A stretch of DNA of 64,000 nt from Bdellovibrionales bacterium (GTDB lineage: Bacteria; Bdellovibrionota; Bdellovibrionia; Bdellovibrionales; UBA1609), in the NCBI GenBank assembly GCA_965203095.1, contig OZ241877.1, positions 576,001 to 640,000 on the forward strand, read 5' to 3'. Numbering within the stretch: the first letter of the stretch is position 1; the number at the start of each line of letters is the position of its first letter. This document shows positions 10,980 to 59,396 of this stretch, in pieces. Below the pieces are notes generated by a model. The model had not been told where the DNA came from. It made no database searches and saw nothing but the letters and a program-made list of their open reading frames with translations. A program made the translations under genes and the position numbers.

Positions 10980-12803
10980 TTATCTTTCTATAATGAGTGG
11001 GACTTCACCACTACCCGATTTTGTTGTAGGGGCTGGGGTTGGGGCCGGAGTGTGTTGAGGGCCACTGCCCGCTCCCGCATTTAAACCTGTATTTAAACTA
11101 TTATTGCTGGCTCCTAAAATGGAGTTTCCGGCCACACCTCCAGAAGATACTAACTGGATCTGTTGCCGTATTCTATAAATTTCTTGAGTGAGGCTGGAGA
11201 TCACTTCCTGCCTTTGCATCCAGTCTTTTTGGACAGATTGCTGATGTTGGAGCCATGCTTGTTGCATTTTTATCCGAGCTTGCATTTGTTGCTGTTGAAA
11301 CTGAATGTATTGGCTGTATCGTTGCTGTTGCCATATCCCGGCATTCATCCCTGGCCCCCCTCCAAACTGAAATCCGGCTCCTGCACCGGCCCAAGGGTTG
11401 CCCCCAAAAGAAGAAGCTGGGGGACAGCCTATAGCCATACAAGTCATCCCTCCTCCAAACTGGAAACCGGCACTCGCCCCTCCAAAAGGGTTGCCTCCAA
11501 AAGGGCTACCCCCAAACTGAAAACCGGCACTCGCCCCTCCAAAAGGGTTGCCTCCAAAAGGGCTACCCCCAAACTGAAAACCGGCACTGGCTCCGGACCA
11601 AGGATTTCCTCCAAAAGGACCCCCTCCAAACTGAAAACCGGCACTCGCCCCTCCAAAAGGGTTGCCTCCAAAAGGACCACCTCCAAATTGAAAACCGGCA
11701 CTGGCACCGCCCCAAGGGTTGCCACCAAAACCAGCTCCTGCACTGGCCCAAGGGTTGCCCCCACCGTGAAAGCCTGCACCCGCCCCAAACTGGAAGGGGG
11801 AATACATATTGCCTCTACTATGGGATCCCGGGCTACAGGCAAAACTCCCAAAACGGGAATGCCCACCGGCCAAACCGTGAATACCGTTAGAGATAAAAGG
11901 AAGACCTAAAGAAGCCCCCGCCCAGGACAGGCCGGAAGAGCTTATAGGGTCATAACCCTGCCTTACTCTCAAGTTGTTAAGGGCTAAAGCCTCTTTTTTT
12001 CCAGCTCTATATCCATAATAGGACATAGCCCCGCCAGCTAAAATGGAAAGGGCATTACCTACCACTTGCCCAGTAGTGGGGCCGTCTAAATCCCTCAACT
12101 CTTCTAAACATTCAAAACAAAAGGTATTGGCTTCTGTCTCTTCGTCCTCGTCATCATCAGGCTCTATTTCGCCAAGTTCTTCTTCCCAGTTGTATATCTT
12201 TTCGTCATACTCTTTTCGATTATCGAGCTGTTCTCTCAGCTTATCAAGACTTTTCTCACAAGTTTTTTGACAGTCCTGAAGATTACTTCTACCCTCAACA
12301 TTACATGTTTTTTCTTGTTTGGCATATTCTTTGGCATATTCTCTACAAAACCCCCCGTTCTTGATCCGACCATTGGAGGTAAAAGGCGAAGAAGAATCAT
12401 CTGCCCAAGGAGCCTTTGCAGGATCTATATTACCACTTTCGCCAAGATTCTCCCAACCACTAACTTCTCCAGCTATATAATTTTCAATAAGGTTCACAGC
12501 ATCTTCAGGCGTGCCAATTTCACCTGATGCTGTGTTTAAAGCATCATATTTGTTGCCTGCATCATCAAGAGAGTTAGCCAAATCTGTTTTGAATCTTTCG
12601 ATTTTGTCTTCTATGTTTTCTTGTTTTCTTTGTGCTTTTTCAATCTTTTTTTCTAATTCCTTATAGCGATCTTTTTTGCTCTGTCTTTCCGGTCTTCCAT
12701 GGAGCAGAGCCGCTAATTCTAAAGGGTGCAAACAGGGGTTCCCCGGCATATACATGGATAAAGAAGGCCAGGGGATGAAAAATAAAAATAATATAACTTT
12801 CAA
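10980..12803 (-). CDS. Secreted protein with coiled coils, Gly/Phe-rich 19-aa repeats and a Gln-rich segment
   Basis: Signal peptide; GGNPFGGASAGFQFGG repeats; paralogous to 13381-14940. Confidence 0.8.
   Translation of the reverse strand: MKVILFLFFIPWPSLSMYMPGNPCLHPLELAALLHGRPERQSKKDRYKELEKKIEKAQRKQENIEDKIERFKTDLANSLDDAGNKYDALNTASGEIGTPEDAVNLIENYIAGEVSGWENLGESGNIDPAKAPWADDSSSPFTSNGRIKNGGFCREYAKEYAKQEKTCNVEGRSNLQDCQKTCEKSLDKLREQLDNRKEYDEKIYNWEEELGEIEPDDDEDEETEANTFCFECLEELRDLDGPTTGQVVGNALSILAGGAMSYYGYRAGKKEALALNNLRVRQGYDPISSSGLSWAGASLGLPFISNGIHGLAGGHSRFGSFACSPGSHSRGNMYSPFQFGAGAGFHGGGNPWASAGAGFGGNPWGGASAGFQFGGGPFGGNPFGGASAGFQFGGGPFGGNPWSGASAGFQFGGSPFGGNPFGGASAGFQFGGSPFGGNPFGGASAGFQFGGGMTCMAIGCPPASSFGGNPWAGAGAGFQFGGGPGMNAGIWQQQRYSQYIQFQQQQMQARIKMQQAWLQHQQSVQKDWMQRQEVISSLTQEIYRIRQQIQLVSSGGVAGNSILGASNNSLNTGLNAGAGSGPQHTPAPTPAPTTKSGSGEVPLIIER
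11350..11790 (-). repeat. 57-bp in-frame tandem repeats encoding GGNPFGGASAGFQFGGSPF-like units
   Basis: CCAAACTG(A/G)AAACCGGCACT recurs with 57-bp period; edges are degenerate. Confidence 0.9.
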
Positions 12804-15105: not shown

Positions 15106-16332
15106 ATGAGGTGTTTTTTTGGAATAAGCCTTCTTTTTTGCCCTTTTTCCCCCATTTTATTAGCCGAAAAAATCATTTTATCCCCAGGAGAACTGGCCTT
15201 TATCCCCCGCCCTACGGATCAAAAAATTCGTATAGGGGACAAAAGTCTGTTATCCTTCCGGGCAGAACAGGGCCAGATCTCCCTTTTGGCCAGAAAACGG
15301 GGGCAGAGCCTGCTTGTGGCGGGCAATAAAAAGTATGAAATTTTTGTTCTGGAAAAGGAGAAAAAGCAAAAAGCCATAAAGTTAGACCAACTTTTAAACA
15401 AAATGTGGGGCTTAAGCTGGTCTCTTTCAAGTCAATCAATTTTTCAAATCACAGGGAGGCTTAACCGCCTTCATGACTATGTGGATCTGGCTGAGCTGAG
15501 CCAATCACTCAATATTTTATACGAGTTTAAGGCTTTGCCCGGCGAAGGTCTTAAACCAAGCATTAAACAATATTTTAAAAAAATTTTTAAAAATCAGATT
15601 CTTCCGGAATTTATTTGGGGAGAGCAAGCTTTAGCCTATACCCCTAAGGGGGCAGATCTCTCTTATTACAAAAATATTCTCCGGCCCTTTGGCCTTACTC
15701 CTAAGGAAGATCCTCTATGGTTTTTCAAAAATCCTTTTATTGAGATAGAAATCGCTTTGGTGGAGATTTTAAATTCTTCCAGCTTTTCCTTCAAAAGCCA
15801 AGATGGGGGATTTGATCAGGTTTTTTTAAAAAACTGGAGTTCTCTCTTAGGTTTTTTGAATTTTTTAAAAAGTTCCGGCTATGGGAAAAGCCTGCATCAC
15901 TCCTCCATTATAGCACAAAGTGGGCAAAGCTTGAAAATCCATTCCGGTGGCCAAATCCCCTTCCACAATTACAACACAAAAACAGAGCAAAGCAGTGCTC
16001 AGTGGAAGTCGCACGGACTTCAGCTCCATATCACTCCCACAGTGGGAAAAAGAGATCATATTTTGCTAACTATTAAGGCTCAGCTTTCAGAACCCCTGCC
16101 CCAAAGTTTTTTGTCCGGCCCTCCCCCTTTAAAAAACCAAAGTTGGGAGAGCCAGATAGTGTTAAAAAATCGGCAAATTTTAAAACTTTTCCATTTAAAA
16201 AAACAGGCTCAAGGGAAACAAAACAACAGCCAGATAGGCTGGCTTAACAGCCTCACTTATTCCCTTTTTGGCGGTAGTGGCCAACACAAAATGTCCCAGT
16301 TTGTTTTTATTCAAGCCCGAATTAAAAAATGA
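15106..16332 (+). CDS. Tad/Flp pilus secretin (RcpA/CpaC-like)
   Basis: Signal peptide, N-terminal pilus-formation-like domain, secretin motifs HSGGQIPF and GLQLHITP; stop overlaps the ATPase start. Confidence 0.7.
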   Translation: MRCFFGISLLFCPFSPILLAEKIILSPGELAFIPRPTDQKIRIGDKSLLSFRAEQGQISLLARKRGQSLLVAGNKKYEIFVLEKEKKQKAIKLDQLLNKMWGLSWSLSSQSIFQITGRLNRLHDYVDLAELSQSLNILYEFKALPGEGLKPSIKQYFKKIFKNQILPEFIWGEQALAYTPKGADLSYYKNILRPFGLTPKEDPLWFFKNPFIEIEIALVEILNSSSFSFKSQDGGFDQVFLKNWSSLLGFLNFLKSSGYGKSLHHSSIIAQSGQSLKIHSGGQIPFHNYNTKTEQSSAQWKSHGLQLHITPTVGKRDHILLTIKAQLSEPLPQSFLSGPPPLKNQSWESQIVLKNRQILKLFHLKKQAQGKQNNSQIGWLNSLTYSLFGGSGQHKMSQFVFIQARIKK

Positions 16333-17444
16333 AACCGGAAAACAGCCTTTTTAAAGAGTTTGAAAGCATCCTCCATCTCTTCCAAAACAGCCTGACAGAA
16401 AAGGGCCTGAGCCTCCCCCCACAAGAAAAAAGCAATGATGAGAGCATCCACAAAATCATAGAGGAAAGCAGTTCTACAAAAAACAAACAGAGAATCCTGT
16501 CTGAATTTTCCAGTTTTGGACCCTTAGATGACCTCTTACAAGAACCCGACATCAATGAAATTATTATTTCCAGCAAAGATCATATTTTTTATGAAAAGTA
16601 TGGGAAGATTTTGCAATGGGAAGATAGTTTTTTATCCACAATCACTTTTCATAACATTGTTGAAAAGATAGGGGCACAGGCCCAAATTGCAGTGAATGTT
16701 AAAAAGCCCTTTGCTGAGGGGAAGTGGAAAGATTTCCGGGTGCATTTACTTCGCCCCCCTGTGGTGAAAGAGGATTTTCAGCTCTGTTTGAGGAGACATC
16801 CTAAAAGTTTTTGGACTTTAGACAAGTTGGAGGGAAAAAGCTGGGCAAGGCCCCAAGCTGTAGACATTGTTCGGCAATTTGTGCGGGATCGCTTGAATTT
16901 TTTAATTGTTGGCCCCACCAGCTCAGGGAAAACCTCTGTCCTCAATGCCTGTTTGCAAGAGCTTACCCCTGATGAAAGAGTCCTCAGTATTGAGGATACT
17001 GATGAAATCATCCTGCCCAACAAAGTGAGCACTAAACTTTTCAGCCAAACGGATCCGGAGAGTTTAAAAGCATCCATTAGCCAGCAGGAACTAGTCCGGC
17101 AGAGTTTGAGATTACGACCTGACCGAATTGTTATGGGTGAAGTCCGGGGGGAAGAGGCTAAGGATCTCCTCCTATCTCTTTCCACAGGCCATAGAGGGAG
17201 TATTGGCACCATCCACGGGAGTAGTCACAAACAGGCTTTATGGAAGTTGGAGACTTTGGCACAGATGGGTGCCCCTCAGTGGAGGAGTGAAACTGTCAAA
17301 AATTTGATATTTTCCAGCCTGAATGGGCTTTTGGTTTTGGAAAAAAGGGAAGGGATAAGACTTCTTAAAGGGATTTACAAAATCACGGCCTTAGAGCCTT
17401 CGGGTTTTTTATTTGAGAGCCTATTTGAAAGGCCCTCTGTTTGA
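16329..17444 (+). CDS. cpaF: Tad pilus assembly ATPase (CpaF/TadA)
   Basis: Walker A GPTSSGKT, IEDTDE, LRLRPDRIVMGEVRG, TGHRG..TIH. Confidence 0.88.
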   Translation: MKPENSLFKEFESILHLFQNSLTEKGLSLPPQEKSNDESIHKIIEESSSTKNKQRILSEFSSFGPLDDLLQEPDINEIIISSKDHIFYEKYGKILQWEDSFLSTITFHNIVEKIGAQAQIAVNVKKPFAEGKWKDFRVHLLRPPVVKEDFQLCLRRHPKSFWTLDKLEGKSWARPQAVDIVRQFVRDRLNFLIVGPTSSGKTSVLNACLQELTPDERVLSIEDTDEIILPNKVSTKLFSQTDPESLKASISQQELVRQSLRLRPDRIVMGEVRGEEAKDLLLSLSTGHRGSIGTIHGSSHKQALWKLETLAQMGAPQWRSETVKNLIFSSLNGLLVLEKREGIRLLKGIYKITALEPSGFLFESLFERPSV

Positions 17445-39262: not shown

Positions 39263-39339
39263 TGGTCGGGGAGACAGGATTTGAACCTGCGACCCCCTGG
39301 TCCCAAACCAGATGCGCTACCGGACTGCGCTACTCCCCG
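39263..39339 (-). tRNA. tRNA-Pro(TGG)
   Basis: CGGGGAGTAGCGCAGTCCGGTAGCGCATCTGGTTTGGGACCAGGGGGTCGCAGGTTCAAATCCTGTCTCCCCGACCA: cloverleaf, TGG anticodon, encoded CCA. Confidence 0.97.
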
Positions 39340-39579: not shown

Positions 39580-41508
39580 TTATTGAGGCAAGATCCATTT
39601 TAGGTTTTGAAACTCATCGTTTTTGAGTAAGAGTCCATTTTTCTTTTTTCGCTCTCCAAAAAAATAATCTCTGAGGGTAGACATATTTTTATAGGTCACC
39701 TTTTGATTCCCTTTAAAAATTTTGTTTGCTATTCTTTTTTGCCCTTCTTGCCCTTGGTAGCCTTCAGGATAGTGATTTACAAAATCCTCAATTAAGGCTA
39801 AAAACTGGCTGGAAGTTCCGGTTAGGCTTTTCCAAGCCAATTCCTGAAATTGAGATGAGTCTAAAGAGGCAGATACATTGATGAAAGTTCTTAGCATATA
39901 TCCATCTTCATATTTTTCGGCAAAGCGAACATAACCCTCTATACCGATAAACTCTGGTCTCAGTTCCCCCTTTTCATTTAGAATTTTTTCCCTATAAGTT
40001 CGGAATTTAGTAGTAGATCCTTGAAATTGTTGCCAACCGAGTTTTTTTAAAATATCTTTGTCTAATATGGCGGAAACATTGTTAAAAGCTCTGCTCATTT
40101 TTCCATCTTCGTATTTTTCCGTAAAGTGTGCATAGCCTGCCATACCGGTAAATTCTGGTCGCAATTCCTCACTTTTTGGATCCAGTATTTTTTCTCTATA
40201 AGCTCGGAATGTGGCTATACTCCCATGAAAGGCTTTCCATCTTAACCCTTGGAACTGTTTTTTACTTAGAATAGCGGAAACATTGCTAAAAGCTGTTCGC
40301 ATGGCCCCATCTTCATATTTTTCGGCAAAGTGAGCATATCCATCTATGCCGATAAATTCTGGCCTCAGCTTTCCTTCTTGATCTAAAATTTTGTTTCTAT
40401 AAGACTTAAATTTTTCTACATTTCCGTGAAATTGTTGCCAGCCTAAGTTTTTAAACTGTTCTCTATTCAAGACAGAAGAGACATTAAAAAAACTTTTATG
40501 CATATTTCCATCTGCATATTTTTCGGCAAAGCGAGCATAGCCTTCCATACCTACAAACTCCATTCTAAAAGAACCATCCTCATGCAAAATTTTAGATTTT
40601 TGCCTTCTAAATTCTCTCACATCCCCTCTAAAAATAGACCAACCTAATTTTTTAAACAAAGCTTTATCTAAAACAGCAGATACACTGCCAAAAGCTTTAT
40701 GCATTTTTCCTTCTTCGTAAAGGTCTGCAAAGCGAACATAGCCCTCCATCCCGATAAATTCTGGCCTGAGCCTCCCCTCTTCATCAAGGATTTTAGATTT
40801 ATAAGATCTAAACTCCAGCACAGATCCATAAAAGCTTTTCCAGCCTAAGTTTTTAAAGTCAATTTTATCAAGAATAACAGACACATTTTTAAAAGCTTTA
40901 TGCATTTTTCCTTCTTCGTAAAGGTCTGCGAAGCGAGCATAGCCCTCTATCCCGATAAACTCTGGCCTCAGCTTTCCCGTTTCATTCAGAATTTTCTCTC
41001 TATAAGTCCGGAATTTAGTAGTAGATCCGTAAAATTGTTGCCAGCCGAGTTTTTTAAACAGAGTTTTATTCAAGACAGCAGATACATTGCCAAAAGCTTT
41101 ATGCATTTTTCCTTCTTCGTAAAGGTCTGCAAAGCGAACATAGCCCTCTATCCCGATAAACTCTAACCTCAGCTCCCCTTTTTCATTTAGAATTTTTTCC
41201 CTATAAGCTCTATATTGCTTTACATTGCCGGCAAAATATTGCCAACCGAGTTTTTTAAACAGAGTTTTTTTCAGAGTAGTAGAAACATTGTTAAAAACCG
41301 TTTGCATGGATCTATATCCATTTTGTTCGGCAAAGAGGGCATAGCCCTCCATACCTTGAAATTCTGGGCGGGGCTGTCCTTTTTCATCAAGGATTTTACT
41401 TGTTAGCCTTTGAAAAACTGTGGAACATGCTGTGGGAACTGTTGAGGGATGAGCGAAAAGAGAATAAAAAGCCAAAAAAAGAAATAAGATAAGATTTTTA
41501 AAGTTCAT
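39580..41508 (-). CDS. Secreted protein with eight 67-aa tandem repeats plus a degenerate ninth (family not recognised)
   Basis: Signal peptide; unit KIL.E.G.LRPEF.G.EGY..FA..Y..G.M...F.NVS..L....FK.LGW..F.G....FR.Y; 201-bp DNA period. Confidence 0.9.
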   Translation of the reverse strand: MNFKNLILFLFLAFYSLFAHPSTVPTACSTVFQRLTSKILDEKGQPRPEFQGMEGYALFAEQNGYRSMQTVFNNVSTTLKKTLFKKLGWQYFAGNVKQYRAYREKILNEKGELRLEFIGIEGYVRFADLYEEGKMHKAFGNVSAVLNKTLFKKLGWQQFYGSTTKFRTYREKILNETGKLRPEFIGIEGYARFADLYEEGKMHKAFKNVSVILDKIDFKNLGWKSFYGSVLEFRSYKSKILDEEGRLRPEFIGMEGYVRFADLYEEGKMHKAFGSVSAVLDKALFKKLGWSIFRGDVREFRRQKSKILHEDGSFRMEFVGMEGYARFAEKYADGNMHKSFFNVSSVLNREQFKNLGWQQFHGNVEKFKSYRNKILDQEGKLRPEFIGIDGYAHFAEKYEDGAMRTAFSNVSAILSKKQFQGLRWKAFHGSIATFRAYREKILDPKSEELRPEFTGMAGYAHFTEKYEDGKMSRAFNNVSAILDKDILKKLGWQQFQGSTTKFRTYREKILNEKGELRPEFIGIEGYVRFAEKYEDGYMLRTFINVSASLDSSQFQELAWKSLTGTSSQFLALIEDFVNHYPEGYQGQEGQKRIANKIFKGNQKVTYKNMSTLRDYFFGERKKKNGLLLKNDEFQNLKWILPQ

Positions 41509-41627
41509 ATTTTTATTTACCTGTAAAAACTCTTATTAAAAAGCTCTGGATTTTTAACTGTCGTGAAAACAAAAATCCAAATACCTTGCTTTGCAAAAAA
41601 AAACCATTTTCACAATGTCTGGCTTTC

Positions 41628-41654
41628 CTGGATTCCCATTTTCACGGGAATGAC
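41628..41654 (-). repeat. REP-like palindrome (same family)
   Basis: CTGGATTCCCATTTTCACGGGAATGAC. Confidence 0.78.
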
Positions 41655-41843
41655 AGACCTGGCAGGAACAATGGGAATCCACCCGACAAAACCCATAGCC
41701 ATAGAGCAAAACCCTACAAAAAGGTCTCTACTCTCTTAAGTTTTGCAAGCTATAGCAAGCAAAAATAGATTTTTCAATAATTTTGAAAAAAATTCCTTCT
41801 TTTTCTTGATTCTTACCTTTATATTTGTTAAGAGCTTTTAGGG

Positions 41844-48007: not shown

Positions 48008-49603
48008 TCACTCCCCAAAAAGGAAATGATCCCAACCCTGCCAATCCTCTGGATAGGCTTTGGAGGGATCGGGAGGAAGCCCCTCTCCCTCTTCTTTTGA
48101 TTGTGACAAGCTAAAATAATCTTCCGGGCTGAGCACATTTAAAAACTGAACATAAACTTGAGCGGATTTAAAATCCATCCATTGGATCCCTAAAAAATTT
48201 TCTACATTTATCCATTGATCCTCATAAGCAATATGAGGCTGTCGGGGGAAGTTTTTTGGCCTTTGATCGGTTTTAAGCCATTGATAAAACTCTTCAGCTG
48301 TCATGTTTTTCTTTCGGATATAGGCACGAGCTTTTTTGTATGGCATTATGGGCTGTTTTTGGCCTAAAAAGGATCTCCAACCTTTCCAATAATAGGAATA
48401 AACTTCCCGCGGGTGAAAAGGGATATCTTCTGGCCGATCTCCTGACACACTCCACCTTTCATATTCCTTTTGAGTCCTTATTCCTAAAGACTGGACATGA
48501 TCTTGGGCCTCTCGGTAAGGCCTCCACTTTTTTCTGCGTTTATTTCCTGTGCCAAGGAAGATCTTCCAGCCCTCCCACTCTTCTTTGTAGATTTTTTGAG
48601 GGTCAGAAGGGATATCCTGTGGCCTCTCTCCGGATTTGCTCCATTCATTATATTCCTTTTGAGTCCTTATTCCCATGGATTGGACATGATCTTGAGCCTC
48701 TCGGTAAGGCCTCCACTTTTTTCTACGTTTATTTCCTGTGCCGAGGAAACTTCCCCAGCCTTCCCATTCTTCTTTGTAAACACTTTCGGGGCTTGAGGGG
48801 ATGTCCTTCGGCCTCTCTCCGGACTGGATCCAAACTCTAAATTCTCTCCTGTTTTTTAGGCCAAGGGATCGGATATACGCTTTAGCCTTTTGATAAGCTC
48901 TCCACTTTTTTTTGTGTTGGTTTGCCGTTCCAAGGAAGATCCCCCAACCTCCCCACTCTTCCTTGTAGATTTTTTGAGGGTCAGAAGGGATATCTTTTGG
49001 TCGATCTCCGGATTTGCTCCACTCATTATATTTCCGTTTAGTTTTTATACCGAGGGATTGGACATGGGCCTGAACTTCTGAATAAGATCTCCACTTTTTT
49101 TCTTCCCTCCTTGGGCCTAAAAAAACCTCCCAGCCCTCCCATTCCTCTCTATAACTCACTTGAGGGCGACTGGGGATATCTTCCAGCCCACTAGATCTTC
49201 TCCATTTTCGATAGCTATCCTCATTTTTTATTCCATGGGCTTGAACTAAAGATTGGACTTCCCTATACGGCCTCCACTGTCTTTTCTTTACCCCTAAAAG
49301 AAAAACTGTCCATCCTTCCCACTCTTTTTTATAAACTCTATTGGGGTTAGAGGGGATGTCTTGGGGTCGATCTCCGGATTTGCTCCACTCATTATATTGC
49401 TTTTGAGTTCTTATTCCCAAAGACTGAACATGGTTTTGAGCTTTTTTGTAGCTGATCCATTTGGAGCTATGGGAAAAACTTTGCCGGCACCCTTCATCCG
49501 CTGGAGCAGGTAAAAAAACCAATAGGCAAAGGCACAGCACAATCCCTCGAATAAGTTTGAAATGATCAGATAAAAAGATTTTAAAAAATAATTGTAATCT
49601 CAT
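48008..49603 (-). CDS. Secreted protein with integrase-repeat-like (INT_rpt) tandem domains: 6 variable plus 2 cap repeats
   Basis: Unit W..Y.EA...VQSLGI....EY.EWSKSG.RP.DIP..P..VY..EW.GW..FLG; signal peptide ending PAPA-DEGCRQSFS. Confidence 0.85.
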   Translation of the reverse strand: MRLQLFFKIFLSDHFKLIRGIVLCLCLLVFLPAPADEGCRQSFSHSSKWISYKKAQNHVQSLGIRTQKQYNEWSKSGDRPQDIPSNPNRVYKKEWEGWTVFLLGVKKRQWRPYREVQSLVQAHGIKNEDSYRKWRRSSGLEDIPSRPQVSYREEWEGWEVFLGPRREEKKWRSYSEVQAHVQSLGIKTKRKYNEWSKSGDRPKDIPSDPQKIYKEEWGGWGIFLGTANQHKKKWRAYQKAKAYIRSLGLKNRREFRVWIQSGERPKDIPSSPESVYKEEWEGWGSFLGTGNKRRKKWRPYREAQDHVQSMGIRTQKEYNEWSKSGERPQDIPSDPQKIYKEEWEGWKIFLGTGNKRRKKWRPYREAQDHVQSLGIRTQKEYERWSVSGDRPEDIPFHPREVYSYYWKGWRSFLGQKQPIMPYKKARAYIRKKNMTAEEFYQWLKTDQRPKNFPRQPHIAYEDQWINVENFLGIQWMDFKSAQVYVQFLNVLSPEDYFSLSQSKEEGEGLPPDPSKAYPEDWQGWDHFLFGE

Positions 49604-49621
49604 GTTTTTATTTTCTTATCC

Positions 49622-51721
49622 TTATTTCCCGAAAAGGAAATGATCCCAACCCCGCCAATCCTTTTGATAGGCTTTAGAAGGATCGGGTGGAAGCCCCTCT
49701 CCCTCCTCTTTTGATTGTGACAAGCTAAAATAATCTTCCGGACTGAGCACATTTAAAAACTGAACATAAACTTGAGCGGATTTAAAATCCATCCATTGGA
49801 TTCCTAAAAAATTTTCTACATTTATCCATTGATCCTCATAAGCAATATGAGGCTGTCGGGGGAAGTTTTTTGGCCTTTGATCGGATTTAAGCCATTGATA
49901 AAACTCTTCAGCTGTCATGTTTTTCTTTCGGATATAGGCACGAGCCATTTTGTATGGCATTATGGGCTGTTTTTGGCCTAAAAAGGATCTCCAACCTTTC
50001 CAATAATAAGAATACACTCGATATGGGCTGGATGGGATGTCCTCTGGTCGATCTCCGGACTTGCTCCATTGCTCATACTCATGTTTAGTTTTTATACCGA
50101 GGGACTGAATGTATGCTTTGGCTTTTAAATAAGATCTCCACTTTTTTTTGAGTTGATTCCCTGTGCCAAGGAAAATACCCCAACCTTCCCATTCTTCTCT
50201 GTAGATTTTTCGAAGGTTAAAAGGAATGTCCTTTGGTCGCTTTCCGGATTGATTCCATTTTTCATACTCCTTTTTGGTTTTTATTCCCTGGGATTGAATA
50301 TAAATTTTAACTTCTTGATAGGGTCTCCATTCTGTTTTTGTCCCAAGAAAAGAGGGCCAGCCCTCCCACTCTTTGTATGTTTTGTCCGGCCGAAAAGGGA
50401 TGTCTTCTGGTCGATCTCCGGATTTGCTCCACTCTTTATATTCCCGTTCAGTTTTTATTCCCAGGGACTGGACATGATCTTGAGCTGATTGATAAGACCT
50501 CCATTCTTTTTTGCGTTGGTTCCCTGTTCCGAGAAAGATCCCCCAACCTTCCCACTCATTATAGATTTCATGAGGGGCTGAGGGAATATCCTCTGGCCTT
50601 TGTCCGGATGTGCTCCACTCCTTATATTCCCGTTTGCTTTTTATACCGAGGGATTGGACATGAGCTTTAGCTTTTAAATAAGACCTCCACTTTTTTTTGT
50701 GTTTGTTCCCTGTGCCAAGAAAAATCCTCCAGCCTTCCCATTCTTCTCTGTAGACCCTGTCAGGGTCAGAAGGGATATCTTTTGGTCGATCTCCGGATTT
50801 GCTCCATTCATTATATTCCCGTTCGGTTTTTATGCCGAGGGATTGGACATGAACCTGAGCCTTTGCGTAAGGTCTCCACCTATTTTGTTTGTTCCCTGTG
50901 CCAAGGAAAATGCCCCAGCCTTCCCATTCTTCTTTATAAACACTTTCGGGGCTTGAGGGAATGTCTTCTGGTCGATCTCCGGATTTGCTCCACTCCTTAT
51001 ATTTCCGTTTGCTTTTTATACCGAGGGATTGGACATGAACCTGAGCCTTTGCGTAAGGCCTCCACCTATTTTGTTTGTTCCATGTGCCAAGAAAAATCCT
51101 CCAGCCTTCCCATTCTTCTTTATAAACACTTTCGGGGCTTGAGGGAATGTCTTCTGGTCGATCTCCGGATTTGCTCCACTCCTTATATTCCCGTTTGCTT
51201 TTTATACCGAGGGATTGGATGTATGCTTTAGCCTCTTGATAAGGCATCCATTCTTTTTTTGTCCCAAGAAAAGAGGGCCAACTCTCCCATTCTTCTCTAT
51301 AGACCCTGTCAGGGTCAGAAGGGATATCTTTTGGTCGATCTCCGGATTTGCTCCATTCCTCATATTCCTCTTTAGTTTTTATACCAAGGGATCGGACATG
51401 AGCTTGAACCTCTAAATAAGATTTCCAGTTTGTTCCAAAAAAACGGGGCCAGCCCTTCCACTCTTCTTTGTAGACCCCTTTGGGGTTAGAGGGGATATCC
51501 TTTGGTCGATCTCCGGATTTGCTCCATTCTCTATATTCCTCTTGAGTCCTTATCTTTAAGGATCGGATATAAGCCTGAGCCTCTGCATAAGGCATCCACC
51601 TGTTTTGTTTGGAGAAGCTTTGCCGGCACCCTTCATCCGCTGGAGCAGGTAAAAAAACCAACAGCCCTCCCCCACATACAAGAAGGCAGAAAATCTTTAA
51701 AAATACAATTTTTGATCTCAT
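49622..51721 (-). CDS. Secreted protein with integrase-repeat-like (INT_rpt) tandem domains: 9 variable plus 2 cap repeats
   Basis: Same unit and caps as 48008-49603; start moved to MRSKIVFLK because the upstream extension runs into a MITE. Confidence 0.85.
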   Translation of the reverse strand: MRSKIVFLKIFCLLVCGGGLLVFLPAPADEGCRQSFSKQNRWMPYAEAQAYIRSLKIRTQEEYREWSKSGDRPKDIPSNPKGVYKEEWKGWPRFFGTNWKSYLEVQAHVRSLGIKTKEEYEEWSKSGDRPKDIPSDPDRVYREEWESWPSFLGTKKEWMPYQEAKAYIQSLGIKSKREYKEWSKSGDRPEDIPSSPESVYKEEWEGWRIFLGTWNKQNRWRPYAKAQVHVQSLGIKSKRKYKEWSKSGDRPEDIPSSPESVYKEEWEGWGIFLGTGNKQNRWRPYAKAQVHVQSLGIKTEREYNEWSKSGDRPKDIPSDPDRVYREEWEGWRIFLGTGNKHKKKWRSYLKAKAHVQSLGIKSKREYKEWSTSGQRPEDIPSAPHEIYNEWEGWGIFLGTGNQRKKEWRSYQSAQDHVQSLGIKTEREYKEWSKSGDRPEDIPFRPDKTYKEWEGWPSFLGTKTEWRPYQEVKIYIQSQGIKTKKEYEKWNQSGKRPKDIPFNLRKIYREEWEGWGIFLGTGNQLKKKWRSYLKAKAYIQSLGIKTKHEYEQWSKSGDRPEDIPSSPYRVYSYYWKGWRSFLGQKQPIMPYKMARAYIRKKNMTAEEFYQWLKSDQRPKNFPRQPHIAYEDQWINVENFLGIQWMDFKSAQVYVQFLNVLSPEDYFSLSQSKEEGEGLPPDPSKAYQKDWRGWDHFLFGK

Positions 51722-51852
51722 ATTTTTTAGTTGGTTTAAGATTATGTGTTTTTTTGTTAAAATCAAAATAATGAGTTTAAAATGAAAATATTTCCCTTCA
51801 GAAATGGGTTTTTTCCACCACTTCTTTAAAGGCATGGGTATATTACTAATTA

Positions 51853-52006
51853 GTCGTCCGTGAAAAAGCTGGACAAAAAACCTCGTCCTCTTTTTCCTGC
51901 TTTTGTCCAAAGGCCATTCCATGAGGGTCCAAGGTATTGCCGTCCCGAAATGGAATGGTCCTTTAGATAAAAAAAGTTAAAAAAACAAAGGTTTTTCACG
52001 AGCGAT
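51853..52006 (+). mobile_element. MITE, 154 bp (copy B)
   Basis: TIRs GTCGTCCGTGAAAAA / TTTTTCACGAGCGAT; flanking direct repeat TAATTA; near-identical to copy A. Confidence 0.85.
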
Positions 52007-58245: not shown

Positions 58246-58559
58246 GGCTTCTGGCACTTTAAGCACCGCCAGGGCCACAGGATAATCTTTTGAGAAAGGC
58301 TTTGGATTATTTTTTAAAGTGCTGATCAATTTTAGATTCAAGCTTATCAATCTTTTTGTTTGTGTCTGTTATATGATTGGTTCATGGGTATTCTCAATAT
58401 AAGATTTTGTAAGAAAGCTTTGTTTTCAATGCTTTTAAACTTTTTTTCTTCCTCAATGGGCGAACTCAGGAAAAAAAATAGGAAATTTTTTCACTGAGCT
58501 TGATTTTTTGTATTTTTTTGCTTATCTATTTAACCGTTTCAATCAGCAGGAGGAAAATT

Positions 58560-59396
58560 ATGAAGATTATCTTAATTATTGGTGCTTTTATTTTTGCTGA
58601 GATGTTTTTCAGCAAGTCAGCTCTTGGTTCAAGCTCATGTATAGATGCATGTCCAGAGGAAAAAGAAGACAATAGTCAGAACGAAACAAACGAAGAGGTT
58701 TTGTTTTCTGCTATCCATTCAGGGGACTTATCAGCTGTTCAGGCTGTTTTAGAAAAAGGAGTGAATATAGAGGCCAGAGATGAAAAAGACCGGACCCCTT
58801 TGCATGTAGCCAGTCTCTTGGGGTATCCAGAAGTTATCCGTATTTTATTGGACGCGGGAGCAGATATAGAGGCCAGAGATGAAAAACACTACTGGACCCC
58901 TCTGTTGATGGCCAGCTTTTTGGGACATCCAGAAGTTGTCCAAACTTTAATAGAGGCAGGAGCCAACATAAATGCTGAAGATGATTATGGAAAGACCCCT
59001 TTGTATGTCGCCAGCCATAAGCAGAAATTAAAAGTTGTCCGTATTTTATTGGACGCAGGAGCCAACACAGAGATCGCAGGAGGTATGGGTCTAGTAGCGT
59101 CCACCCCTTTGCTGATAGCCAGTCTCTTAGGGCATTCAGAAATTGTCCGAGCTTTATTGGACGGAGGAGCCAACATAAATGCTGAAGATAGTTCTGGAAA
59201 TACCCCTTTGCATGTCGCCAGCATACAAGGGAATGTAATAGTTGTCCGTATTTTATTATCAGCAGGAGCAGACATAGAGGCTGAAGATAATTTTGGAAAG
59301 ACCGCTTTAGAACGAAGCAAAAACAAAAGGGTTATCCAAATTTTAAAGCAAAGGGGAGCAAGAGAGACCACAAGCTGGTGGGACTTTCTTTTTTAA
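58560..59396 (+). CDS. Secreted ankyrin-repeat protein (about 6 repeats)
   Basis: AGGAGG RBS before ATG 58560; signal peptide; TPLH.AS..G..EV...LL.AGA.I units. Confidence 0.9.
   Translation: MKIILIIGAFIFAEMFFSKSALGSSSCIDACPEEKEDNSQNETNEEVLFSAIHSGDLSAVQAVLEKGVNIEARDEKDRTPLHVASLLGYPEVIRILLDAGADIEARDEKHYWTPLLMASFLGHPEVVQTLIEAGANINAEDDYGKTPLYVASHKQKLKVVRILLDAGANTEIAGGMGLVASTPLLIASLLGHSEIVRALLDGGANINAEDSSGNTPLHVASIQGNVIVVRILLSAGADIEAEDNFGKTALERSKNKRVIQILKQRGARETTSWWDFLF

What the first reader, a model, noticed from the sequence alone, without database searches (positions are those of the whole stretch)
39580..41508. Secreted protein built from an unrecognised 67-aa repeat with a hypervariable helix: candidate modular binder
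Seen: a signal peptide, then 8 tandem 67-aa units and a degenerate cap. The scaffold is highly conserved, but residues vary in two windows. The helix window reads MQTVFNNVS, MHKAFGNVS, MHKAFKNVS, MHKAFGSVS, MHKSFFNVS, MRTAFSNVS, MSRAFNNVS, MLRTFINVS. The W-x-x-F-x-G window reads QY/A, QQ/Y, KS/Y, SI/R, QQ/H, KA/H, QQ/Q. Half-units are shuffled at DNA level (WQQF.GSTTKFRTYREKILNE recurs in units 2-3 and 7-8). The unit does not match ankyrin, TPR, Sel1, LRR, PPR or TALE consensus as I know them. There is no catalytic domain, and a basic RKKK sits near the C-terminus. Inference: a modular nucleic-acid- or protein-binding effector with a repeat-encoded specificity code, exported to prey or host.
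Basis: partly seen in the sequence, partly recalled or inferred. Interest (0 to 1): 0.82.

Follow-up and report, generated by a model that had tools for sequence, protein, structure and literature searches.

The report
Secreted helix-turn-helix array with repeat code
A small Bdellovibrio-like bacterium encodes a protein with a likely export signal and eight 67-residue modules from an unnamed family in which four residues per module change much faster than the rest; the modules are predicted to fold like DNA-reading helix-turn-helix domains, so it is likely a natural programmable DNA binder that would be aimed at a prey or host cell.

Summary
The ORF is real: 642 aa with a signal-like N-terminus, a Cys-x3-Phe motif, eight units of 67 aa (one has 68) and a cap. 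It belongs to a large family with no Pfam, NCBIfam, PHROG or PDB name. The same four unit positions (33, 37, 55, 57) are the most variable in three separate homologue sets. Their non-synonymous divergence exceeds synonymous divergence, and they shun acidic residues. One genome holds at least 38 paralogues with 82% scaffold identity but 27% identity at these four sites. AlphaFold2 (pLDDT 95) gives each unit an extended arm plus a three-helix bundle with weak homeodomain/HTH likeness (Z 5.7 or less). Positions 33 and 37 sit on the would-be recognition helix, 55 and 57 on the arm. Relatives fuse the array to HTH_3, an OmpR winged helix, an RNA-polymerase alpha-CTD-like domain or a nuclease-like domain. 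Best reading: an exported, modular sequence-specific DNA binder acting in a prey or host cell. Binding, target and delivery are untested. The RKKK is not conserved, so it gives no support for a eukaryotic nucleus.

The parts
39580..41508 (-). Whole gene, 642 aa (P0001); single copy in its genome
41452..41508 (-). Signal-peptide-like N-terminus, about aa 1-19 (basic start, hydrophobic core); predicted by rule, not SignalP
   Evidence: sequence; 100 of 120 homologues have such a stretch
41413..41427 (-). Cys-x3-Phe motif, aa 28-32, holding the protein's only cysteine; candidate export/translocation tag; not a lipobox
   Evidence: 94 of 100 signal-bearing homologues; lipobox in 4 of 103
41200..41400 (-). 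Unit 1 (aa 37-103); variable residues 33/37/55/57 = Q N Y A
40999..41199 (-). Unit 2 (aa 104-170); H G Q Y
40798..40998 (-). Unit 3 (aa 171-237); H K S Y
40597..40797 (-). Unit 4 (aa 238-304); H G I R
40396..40596 (-). Unit 5 (aa 305-371); H F Q H
40195..40395 (-). Unit 6 (aa 372-438); R S A H
39991..40194 (-). Unit 7 (aa 439-506, 68 aa); S N Q Q
39790..39990 (-). Unit 8 (aa 507-573); L I S T
39580..39789 (-). C-terminal cap (aa 574-642): a degenerate, hairpin-less unit conserved in the family; the part with the best homeodomain/HTH likeness
39640..39651 (-). RKKK (aa 620-623), in an insertion; not conserved
39263..39339 (-). tRNA-Pro just downstream; the gene lies between it and rimP-nusA-infB, at the edge of an island (methyltransferase, ParA-like and Rpn-type genes)
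   Evidence: rimP named from position and recall

Best explanation
The protein is an array of eight 67-residue modules, each predicted to fold like a helix-turn-helix with a preceding arm, in which four residues per module vary under diversifying selection; it is likely exported and likely reads a specific DNA sequence through those residues, and would act inside a prey or host cell. Mechanism by step. SHOWN: the repeat array, the four variable positions, unit shuffling and paralogue expansion. PREDICTED: the structural unit runs W53-arm (55, 57), helix A, hairpin, helix B, turn at G30, helix C (33, 37), helix D. INFERRED: helix C enters the major groove with 33/34/37/38 as recognition-helix positions 1/2/5/6 (33 and 37 variable, K34 and N38 nearly fixed), the arm reads the minor groove or adjacent bases, and units are copied and swapped to build new targets. 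INFERRED: export is by Sec followed by a secretin system (type II, type IV pilus or Tad) that uses the Cys-x3-Phe tag. This copy has no catalytic domain, so it would act by occupying DNA (blocking or redirecting transcription). The target is more likely a bacterial cytoplasm than a eukaryotic nucleus. Rough odds by step: nucleic-acid ligand 0.7, double-stranded DNA 0.55, action inside another cell 0.5.
For: Within-protein entropy is 1.38-1.73 bits at positions 33, 37, 55 and 57 and at most 0.91 elsewhere, in 36 proteins. The same four rank top in two further sets of 41 and 23 proteins. pN at the four sites over overall pS exceeds 1.2 in 11 of 13 genes, against 0.25-0.93 for the scaffold. 38 paralogues listed with one contig length have 38 distinct code strings and 128 tetrads in 213 units, with 82% scaffold versus 27% site identity. 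Over 2972 residues the four sites are 32% Gln, 15.5% Lys/Arg, 6.7% His, 17% Leu/Ile and 4.4% Asp/Glu, against 29% Asp/Glu at other variable positions, as expected if they face a polyanion. Lys/Arg is kept at positions 2, 11, 34, 49 and 67. Models reach pLDDT 94.7 and 96.3. For the cap, 44 of 50 structural neighbours are by title homeodomains, HTH/winged-helix regulators or Z-alpha domains (my count). The internal unit aligns from residue 55 onward with Oct4, NKX2-5, engrailed and Brn-5. Fusions: HTH_3 (P0084, E 5e-6) and Trans_reg_C (P0216, E 2e-13); alpha-CTD-like domain in 4 of 5 related proteins tested (best E 4.5e-5); a nuclease-like C-terminal domain in 12 of 16 proteins, the other 4 carrying unrelated repeats in the same place. 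Other signal+Cys-x3-Phe proteins of this genome are pentapeptide repeats, integrase-repeat arrays and an alpha-CTD-like protein.
Against: No binding data. Fold likeness is below the tool's significance level: best Z 5.7 (rmsd 1.8, 57 residues, RecJ) for the cap and 4.1 (rmsd 3.0, 63 residues, CopN) for internal units. The internal-unit list is led by CopN/InvE/MxiC and ribosomal proteins, and HTH domains are abundant in the PDB. I had no coordinates, so I could not measure whether the four sites share a face or whether the array has DNA-like pitch. Family net charge is near neutral (median +0.29 per unit; 55% of proteins positive), although this protein is +26. Leu/Ile/Phe/Met are common at the variable sites, which also suits protein binding. 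In this gene pN/pS at the four sites is only 1.05; the test uses uncorrected distances, positions 1 (2.74), 12 (1.46) and 9 (1.30) also exceed 1, and the sites were chosen from an overlapping protein set. The nuclease-like domain is recognised by a recalled motif only; the profile test was not significant. Alpha-CTD hits are below Pfam's cut-off in the fused proteins. A Sec signal reaches only the periplasm, and no route into another cell is shown. Habitat and host were not determined.
Confidence: 0.5

Rival explanations
1. A diversified protein- or glycan-binding scaffold (DARPin- or LRR-like) used outside the cytoplasm for prey recognition, adhesion or inhibition of host proteins; the HTH likeness is only a common three-helix arrangement.
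For: Signal peptide; near-neutral family charge; hydrophobic residues at the variable sites; Z-scores under 8 with non-DNA-binding proteins at the top for internal units; diversifying selection and paralogue expansion are equally expected in an arms race over a protein target.
Against: Only 4 of 67 positions vary; Trp, Tyr and Asp are almost absent there (0.0, 0.8, 0.5%), unlike antibody-like binders (recalled); fusion partners are DNA or transcription domains; relatives lacking a signal peptide keep the same helix and arm motifs.
Confidence: 0.2
2. A modular single-stranded RNA binder (PPR/PUF-like) that would block translation or stabilise transcripts in the target cell.
For: A Gln-rich variable alphabet is typical of PUF/PPR base readers (recalled); low net charge suits base-specific RNA readers; ribosomal proteins appear among the weak structural neighbours.
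Against: No PPR or PUF match in Pfam; Foldseek gave Pumilio only E 0.16, TM 0.11; the unit is HTH-like rather than a two-helix hairpin; fusion partners are DNA/transcription domains.
Confidence: 0.15
3. A DNA binder that acts outside cells or in the producer's own envelope (capturing chosen extracellular or prey DNA for uptake or defence) and is never delivered into another living cell.
For: Sec export is enough for this; no FlhA/SctV, VipB or VirB4 found; four secretins present.
Against: Sequence-specific diversification across dozens of paralogues and alpha-CTD fusions make more sense at promoters than on free DNA; other tag-bearing cargo looks cytoplasm-acting.
Confidence: 0.12

Closest known systems
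TAL effectors and TALE-likes (RipTAL, Bat, MOrTL, STAR)
   Same: Tandem near-identical units, a few hypervariable residues per unit, unit shuffling, a terminal degenerate unit, paralogue sets per genome, export from a bacterium.
   Different: 67-aa three-helix-plus-arm unit rather than a 33-35 aa two-helix unit; four separated variable residues rather than one adjacent pair; Sec-type signal rather than type III; no conserved NLS or activation domain; no sequence or Foldseek match. TALE features are recalled and seen in search abstracts.
Homeodomain / HTH DNA-binding domains and tandem Myb-type arrays
   Same: Predicted three-helix bundle with a turn before the third helix and an extended arm before the first; the variable residues map to the third helix and the arm.
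   Different: Z 5.7 or less; a beta-hairpin between helices A and B and a fourth linker helix; 4-18 units in a rigid array; the homeodomain W-F-x-N-x-R motif (recalled) is not present; carries a signal peptide.
C2H2 zinc-finger arrays (functional analogy only)
   Same: About four variable contact residues per module drawn from Q/K/R/H/E/T-type alphabets, many paralogues under diversifying selection (recalled).
   Different: No zinc ligands, different fold and length, bacterial and exported.
pTERF and MOON (Hu et al. 2024, PMC11417379)
   Same: Metagenome-derived repeat proteins with variable positions and tested DNA binding (passages read).
   Different: That screen's candidate set covered periods of 15-35 aa, so a 67-aa unit lay outside it; the main text never mentions Bdellovibrio or signal peptides; its supplement could not be read.
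INT_rpt (PF14882) repeat proteins
   Same: Two neighbours at 48008-51922 share the signal + Cys-x3-Phe start and a tandem Trp-containing unit.
   Different: Profile comparison of the units: probability 0.4%, E 0.16; a separate family.

Membership tests
TALE / TALE-like | 33-35 aa repeat with an adjacent variable di-residue | tested here: not met
   Period 67 (63-80 in relatives); variable sites 33, 37, 55, 57; no TALE family in the Pfam scan at E up to 1
TALE / TALE-like | Type III delivery and conserved NLS | tested here: not met
   No PF00771 match in the 90%-complete genome while 4 of 14 controls rang; basic C-terminal run in 3 of 115
TALE / TALE-like | Superhelix that wraps dsDNA | tested here: inconclusive
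   No TALE among listed Foldseek or VIA rows; coordinates not available for measuring pitch
TALE / TALE-like | Sequence-specific DNA binding set by the variable residues | not testable with these tools
   Needs SELEX/PBM and swaps
HTH / homeodomain-like superfamily | Three-helix bundle with a turn before the recognition helix | tested here: inconclusive
   Secondary structure fits; Z 5.7 for the cap and up to 3.7 for homeodomain rows with internal units, below significance
HTH / homeodomain-like superfamily | Sequence profile match to a curated HTH, Myb or homeodomain family | tested here: not met
   Best is Myb_DNA-binding_7 at 16.7 bits against a cut-off of 27, with no significant single stretch; no PDB sequence hit
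Ankyrin, TPR, Sel1, LRR, PPR, PUF, mTERF | Pfam profile match and characteristic period | tested here: not met
   None listed at E up to 1; Foldseek TM 0.17 or less to helical solenoids
INT_rpt PF14882 | Profile match | tested here: not met
   No Pfam hit for P0001 while both neighbours hit; hhalign E 0.16
Lipoprotein (signal peptidase II substrate) | Lipobox before the conserved Cys | tested here: not met
   4 of 103 homologues
PD-(D/E)xK nuclease (C-terminal domain of 12 relatives, not of this protein) | Catalytic motif order and fold | tested here: inconclusive
   Invariant E, D-F and E-Y-H columns; hhalign against small DUF559 and MTES_1575 sets not above shuffles; no PDB or Pfam hit; not folded

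The most novel reading that the evidence does not exclude
Predatory or host-dependent bacteria export libraries of programmable HTH-array transcription effectors into other bacteria: a second, independent TALE-like code with four residues per 67-aa module, re-used in nature with RNA-polymerase alpha-CTD-like and nuclease-like domains, and delivered by an undescribed Cys-x3-Phe-tagged route.
Probability: 0.3. Interest if true: 0.95.

Novelty: new variant of a known kind. Interest (0 to 1): 0.82.

Why it matters
Few natural modular nucleic-acid readers are known (zinc fingers, TALEs, PPR, PUF), and each became a tool. This family supplies more than 700 natural units on a nearly fixed scaffold with four free positions, so a code could be read directly by SELEX or PBM on a handful of paralogues. 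It also makes an open question testable: whether Bdellovibrio-type bacteria manipulate prey or host gene expression with delivered DNA-binding proteins, and by which export route.

Tried and rejected
No curated family: Pfam (one Ig_ENGASE1_C score at its cut-off with no significant single stretch, read as repeat summation), NCBIfam, PHROGs, PDB sequences. ESM Atlas gave no usable hit, which shows neither novelty nor absence. Foldseek PDB and BFVD had no hit at E 0.001 or better. NLS reading of RKKK rejected. Lipoprotein reading rejected. A diversity-generating retroelement was considered and set aside by inspection: the Asn-38 codon stays fixed beside the variable sites; no reverse-transcriptase search was run. 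An mTERF-like reading of the N-terminal repeats of P0153/P0158 found no support. The nuclease profile test was not significant. No kinship to INT_rpt. Pattern scans of GTDB and viral contigs found no relative. An IF2 scan was useless for taxonomy. Genome searches for PF14882 and PF03219 rang in no control and are uninformative. No RNA holder listed. No clear promoter by consensus scan. No conserved neighbour or immunity-like gene seen by eye in 15 loci. Literature: 10 full-text searches listed no description of this family; I saw listings and abstract starts, plus passages of PMC11417379, PMC12419801 and PMC8078820. The supplement of PMC11417379 could not be read and may list such proteins. 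A homeodomain-code paper sought by recalled id was not held, so homeodomain and HTH contact positions are recalled. Complex prediction was not run (no protein partner is claimed).

Full report
OBSERVATION. The ORF at 39580-41508 (-) encodes 642 aa: a signal-like N-terminus, the only cysteine at 28 in a Cys-x3-Phe motif, eight units (seven of 67 aa, one of 68) and a 69-aa cap. The half-unit exchange is visible in DNA: last third of units 2 and 7 85% identical against 43-71% for other pairs, first third of units 2 and 8 89%. Contigs of four public runs (two samples, one study, possibly including the source) match the gene without differences in the listed pieces. The gene is single-copy in a 1.8-Mb genome and stands alone between tRNA-Pro and rimP-nusA-infB. 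A homologue from another genome of the same genus is labelled Bdellovibrionaceae bacterium by NCBI (P0136), in line with unchecked earlier notes on this genome. Habitat and host were not determined.

THE FAMILY. A word-based search gave 167 relatives among 8000 scored candidates (120 listed); a profile search of 1.84 billion representatives gave 445 at E 0.001 or better (150 listed). The first 120 carry 4-14 units, mostly of 67 or 69 aa; longer members reach 18. By my hydrophobicity rule 100 of 120 have a signal-like stretch and 94 of those 100 have Cys-x3-[FLVI] after it; it is a lipobox in 4 of 103, and 77 of 103 have no further cysteine. The family is in 6 of 9 other genomes of the genus and 0 of 31 other relatives with the single-protein query. 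A unit profile matched 13 of 401 genomes across the phylum, own genome included, several with one weak match only. No conserved neighbour or immunity-like partner was seen in 15 loci. Pfam, NCBIfam, PHROGs, PDB sequences and the ESM Atlas give no name.

THE CODE. In 36 proteins with six or more internal 67-aa units, within-protein entropy is 1.45, 1.73, 1.54 and 1.38 bits at unit positions 33, 37, 55 and 57 and at most 0.91 elsewhere. The same four rank top in two further sets of 41 and 23 proteins. They sit in two motifs, M-[33]-K-A-F-[37]-N-V-S and W-Q-[55]-F-[57]-G, whose fixed residues persist in distant relatives. Positions 33/37 and 55/57 covary above within-protein shuffles (0.41 vs 0.30 +/- 0.02 and 0.38 vs 0.24 +/- 0.02 bits), which linkage could also produce. 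In 13 genes with DNA and at least three internal units (one further locus dropped for too few), pN at the four sites over overall pS was 1.0-6.8, above 1.2 in 11 of 13, while the scaffold gave 0.25-0.93; this gene gives only 1.05 because its units are old. Caveats: uncorrected distances, sites chosen on an overlapping set, and positions 1, 9 and 12 also above 1. The 38 listed paralogues that share one contig length (taken as one genome) have 38 different code strings, 128 tetrads in 213 units, 82% scaffold identity and 27% identity at the four sites. The alphabet differs from ordinary surface positions: Gln 32 vs 7%, His 6.7 vs 1%, Leu+Ile 17 vs 6%, Asp+Glu 4.4 vs 29%.

STRUCTURE. AlphaFold2 gives pLDDT 94.7, pTM 0.77 for aa 29-642 and 96.3 for two units. 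Read from W53, a unit is an extended arm (55, 57), helix A, a hairpin, helix B, a turn at G30, helix C (33, 37) and a short helix D. On helix C the pattern M32, A35/F36, V39/S40, L43 marks the buried face, leaving 33, 34, 37, 38 and 41 exposed (inference from periodicity). Foldseek found nothing at E 0.001 or better. The wide structural search matched the cap to three-helix domains with best Z 5.7 (RecJ, rmsd 1.8, 57 residues); by title 44 of 50 rows are homeodomains, HTH/winged-helix regulators or Z-alpha domains. For internal units the best Z is 4.1 and the list is mixed: CopN, InvE, MxiC and ribosomal proteins beside Oct4, NKX2-5, engrailed and Brn-5. These scores are below the tool's significance level. 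The NKX2-5 range (model 55-112 to chain 142-191, Z 3.4, rmsd 3.1) would put position 55 at the homeodomain arm arginine and 33/37 at the first and fifth positions of the recognition helix; this uses recalled numbering and range ends, not a residue alignment. I had no coordinates to test a shared face or DNA-like pitch.

DOMAIN PARTNERS. Of 50 long or distant relatives scanned, P0084 carries HTH_3 (E 5e-6) and P0216 an OmpR-type winged helix (E 2e-13); the other listed hits had no significant single stretch. Four of five related proteins tested have a weak RNA polymerase alpha-CTD match between the cysteine motif and the array (E 4.5e-5 to 0.035, all under the cut-off; P0074 not listed). Twelve of 16 proteins sharing a C-terminal domain with invariant E, D-F and E-Y-H columns carry this repeat, and the other four carry three unrelated repeats in the same place. 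The motif order recalls PD-(D/E)xK nucleases, but a profile test was not significant. In this genome the signal + Cys-x3-Phe start is shared by two INT_rpt arrays, pentapeptide-repeat proteins and a free alpha-CTD-like protein.

DELIVERY. FlhA/SctV, VipB and VirB4 families were not found in the 90%-complete genome while controls rang; four secretins were. RKKK-like runs occur in 3 of 115 C-termini. A TALE-like type III route to a eukaryotic nucleus is therefore not supported. Sec export plus a secretin system is the available path, and the alpha-CTD links point to bacterial transcription. Entry into another cell is inferred, not shown.

MECHANISM AND RIVALS. Best reading (0.5): an exported modular DNA reader with four contact residues per module, retargeted by unit copying and swapping, acting by occupancy in a prey or host cell. 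Rivals: a diversified protein or glycan binder (0.2; near-neutral family charge, median +0.29 per unit, and hydrophobic variable residues favour it), an RNA reader (0.15), and a DNA binder that stays outside cells (0.12).

COMPARISON AND NOVELTY. It works like TALEs or zinc-finger arrays but fails TALE membership on period, variable-site layout, delivery and NLS, and has no profile match to ankyrin, TPR, Sel1, LRR, PPR, PUF, mTERF or INT_rpt. Ten full-text searches listed no description (listings and abstract starts seen). Hu et al. 2024 (PMC11417379; passages read, supplement unreadable) screened periods of 15-35 aa only. PMC12419801 (passages) proposes secreted effectors in Bdellovibrionota and Omnitrophota, and the passages seen do not mention this family. 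PMC8078820 (one passage) only tabulates PF14882. Sequence look-ups in the scan's own notes found nothing; word look-ups showed two analogous but different arrays. Verdict: a real, unnamed repeat family with a strong statistical signature of a specificity code and a plausible but unproven DNA ligand; new variant of a known kind; interest 0.82.

Noticed in passing
window 48008-49603 and 49622-51922 (-): Two tandem INT_rpt (PF14882) repeat proteins with the same signal + Cys-x3-Phe start; relatives in 6 of 9 other genomes of the genus. Possibly a second exported DNA-binding repeat family.
   Followed up: partly
G000:C1:249545-249955 (L140): Free-standing protein with signal, Cys-x3-Phe and an RNA polymerase alpha-CTD-like domain (PF03118, E 2e-5); a candidate exported transcription decoy.
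   Followed up: partly
G000:C1 near 478403, 697879, 964224, 1680351: Four paralogues with a signal + Cys-x3-Phe start; the two scanned are pentapeptide-repeat proteins, a fold known for DNA mimicry (recalled). The motif occurs in 17 of 438 signal-like ORFs against 6.2 expected, several hits being false by eye.
   Followed up: partly
G000:C1:1524862-1526109 (L142): The only glycerol-3-phosphate dehydrogenase found in the genome has a signal-like N-terminal extension with Cys-x3-Phe; the start codon is uncertain.
   Followed up: partly
P0190, P0226, P0256-P0269: One nuclease-like C-terminal domain is fused to this repeat in 12 of 16 proteins and to three unrelated repeat types in the other 4.
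   Followed up: partly
P0127, P0272, P0275: An unnamed N-terminal region of about 540 aa precedes the array; no informative Pfam hit.
   Followed up: partly
P0213, P0170, P0194, P0231, P0251: Distant relatives without a classical signal peptide; their N-termini recall Omnitrophota and Patescibacteria proteins (recalled, taxon not tested).
   Followed up: no
L002, L009, L014, L016, L017 (G009): Copies in this genome lie beside paralogous small secreted Cys-containing repeat proteins, suggesting effector islands.
   Followed up: no
window 40892-40893: A 4-base deletion at the position-37 codon of unit 3 in one contig of run X1 and one of run X4; a variant allele or a mis-laid repeat.
   Followed up: no
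window 41566-41690: High summed contig depth over a hairpin-like element upstream of the gene, probably a dispersed repeat of the kind noted earlier in this genome.
   Followed up: no
window 15106-17444 (+): A secretin and a TadA-like ATPase lie 22 kb from the gene: a candidate export route.
   Followed up: no
window 58500-59396 (+); 1529-1914 and 11455-11730: An ankyrin-repeat protein, and two 57-bp coding tandem repeats.
   Followed up: no
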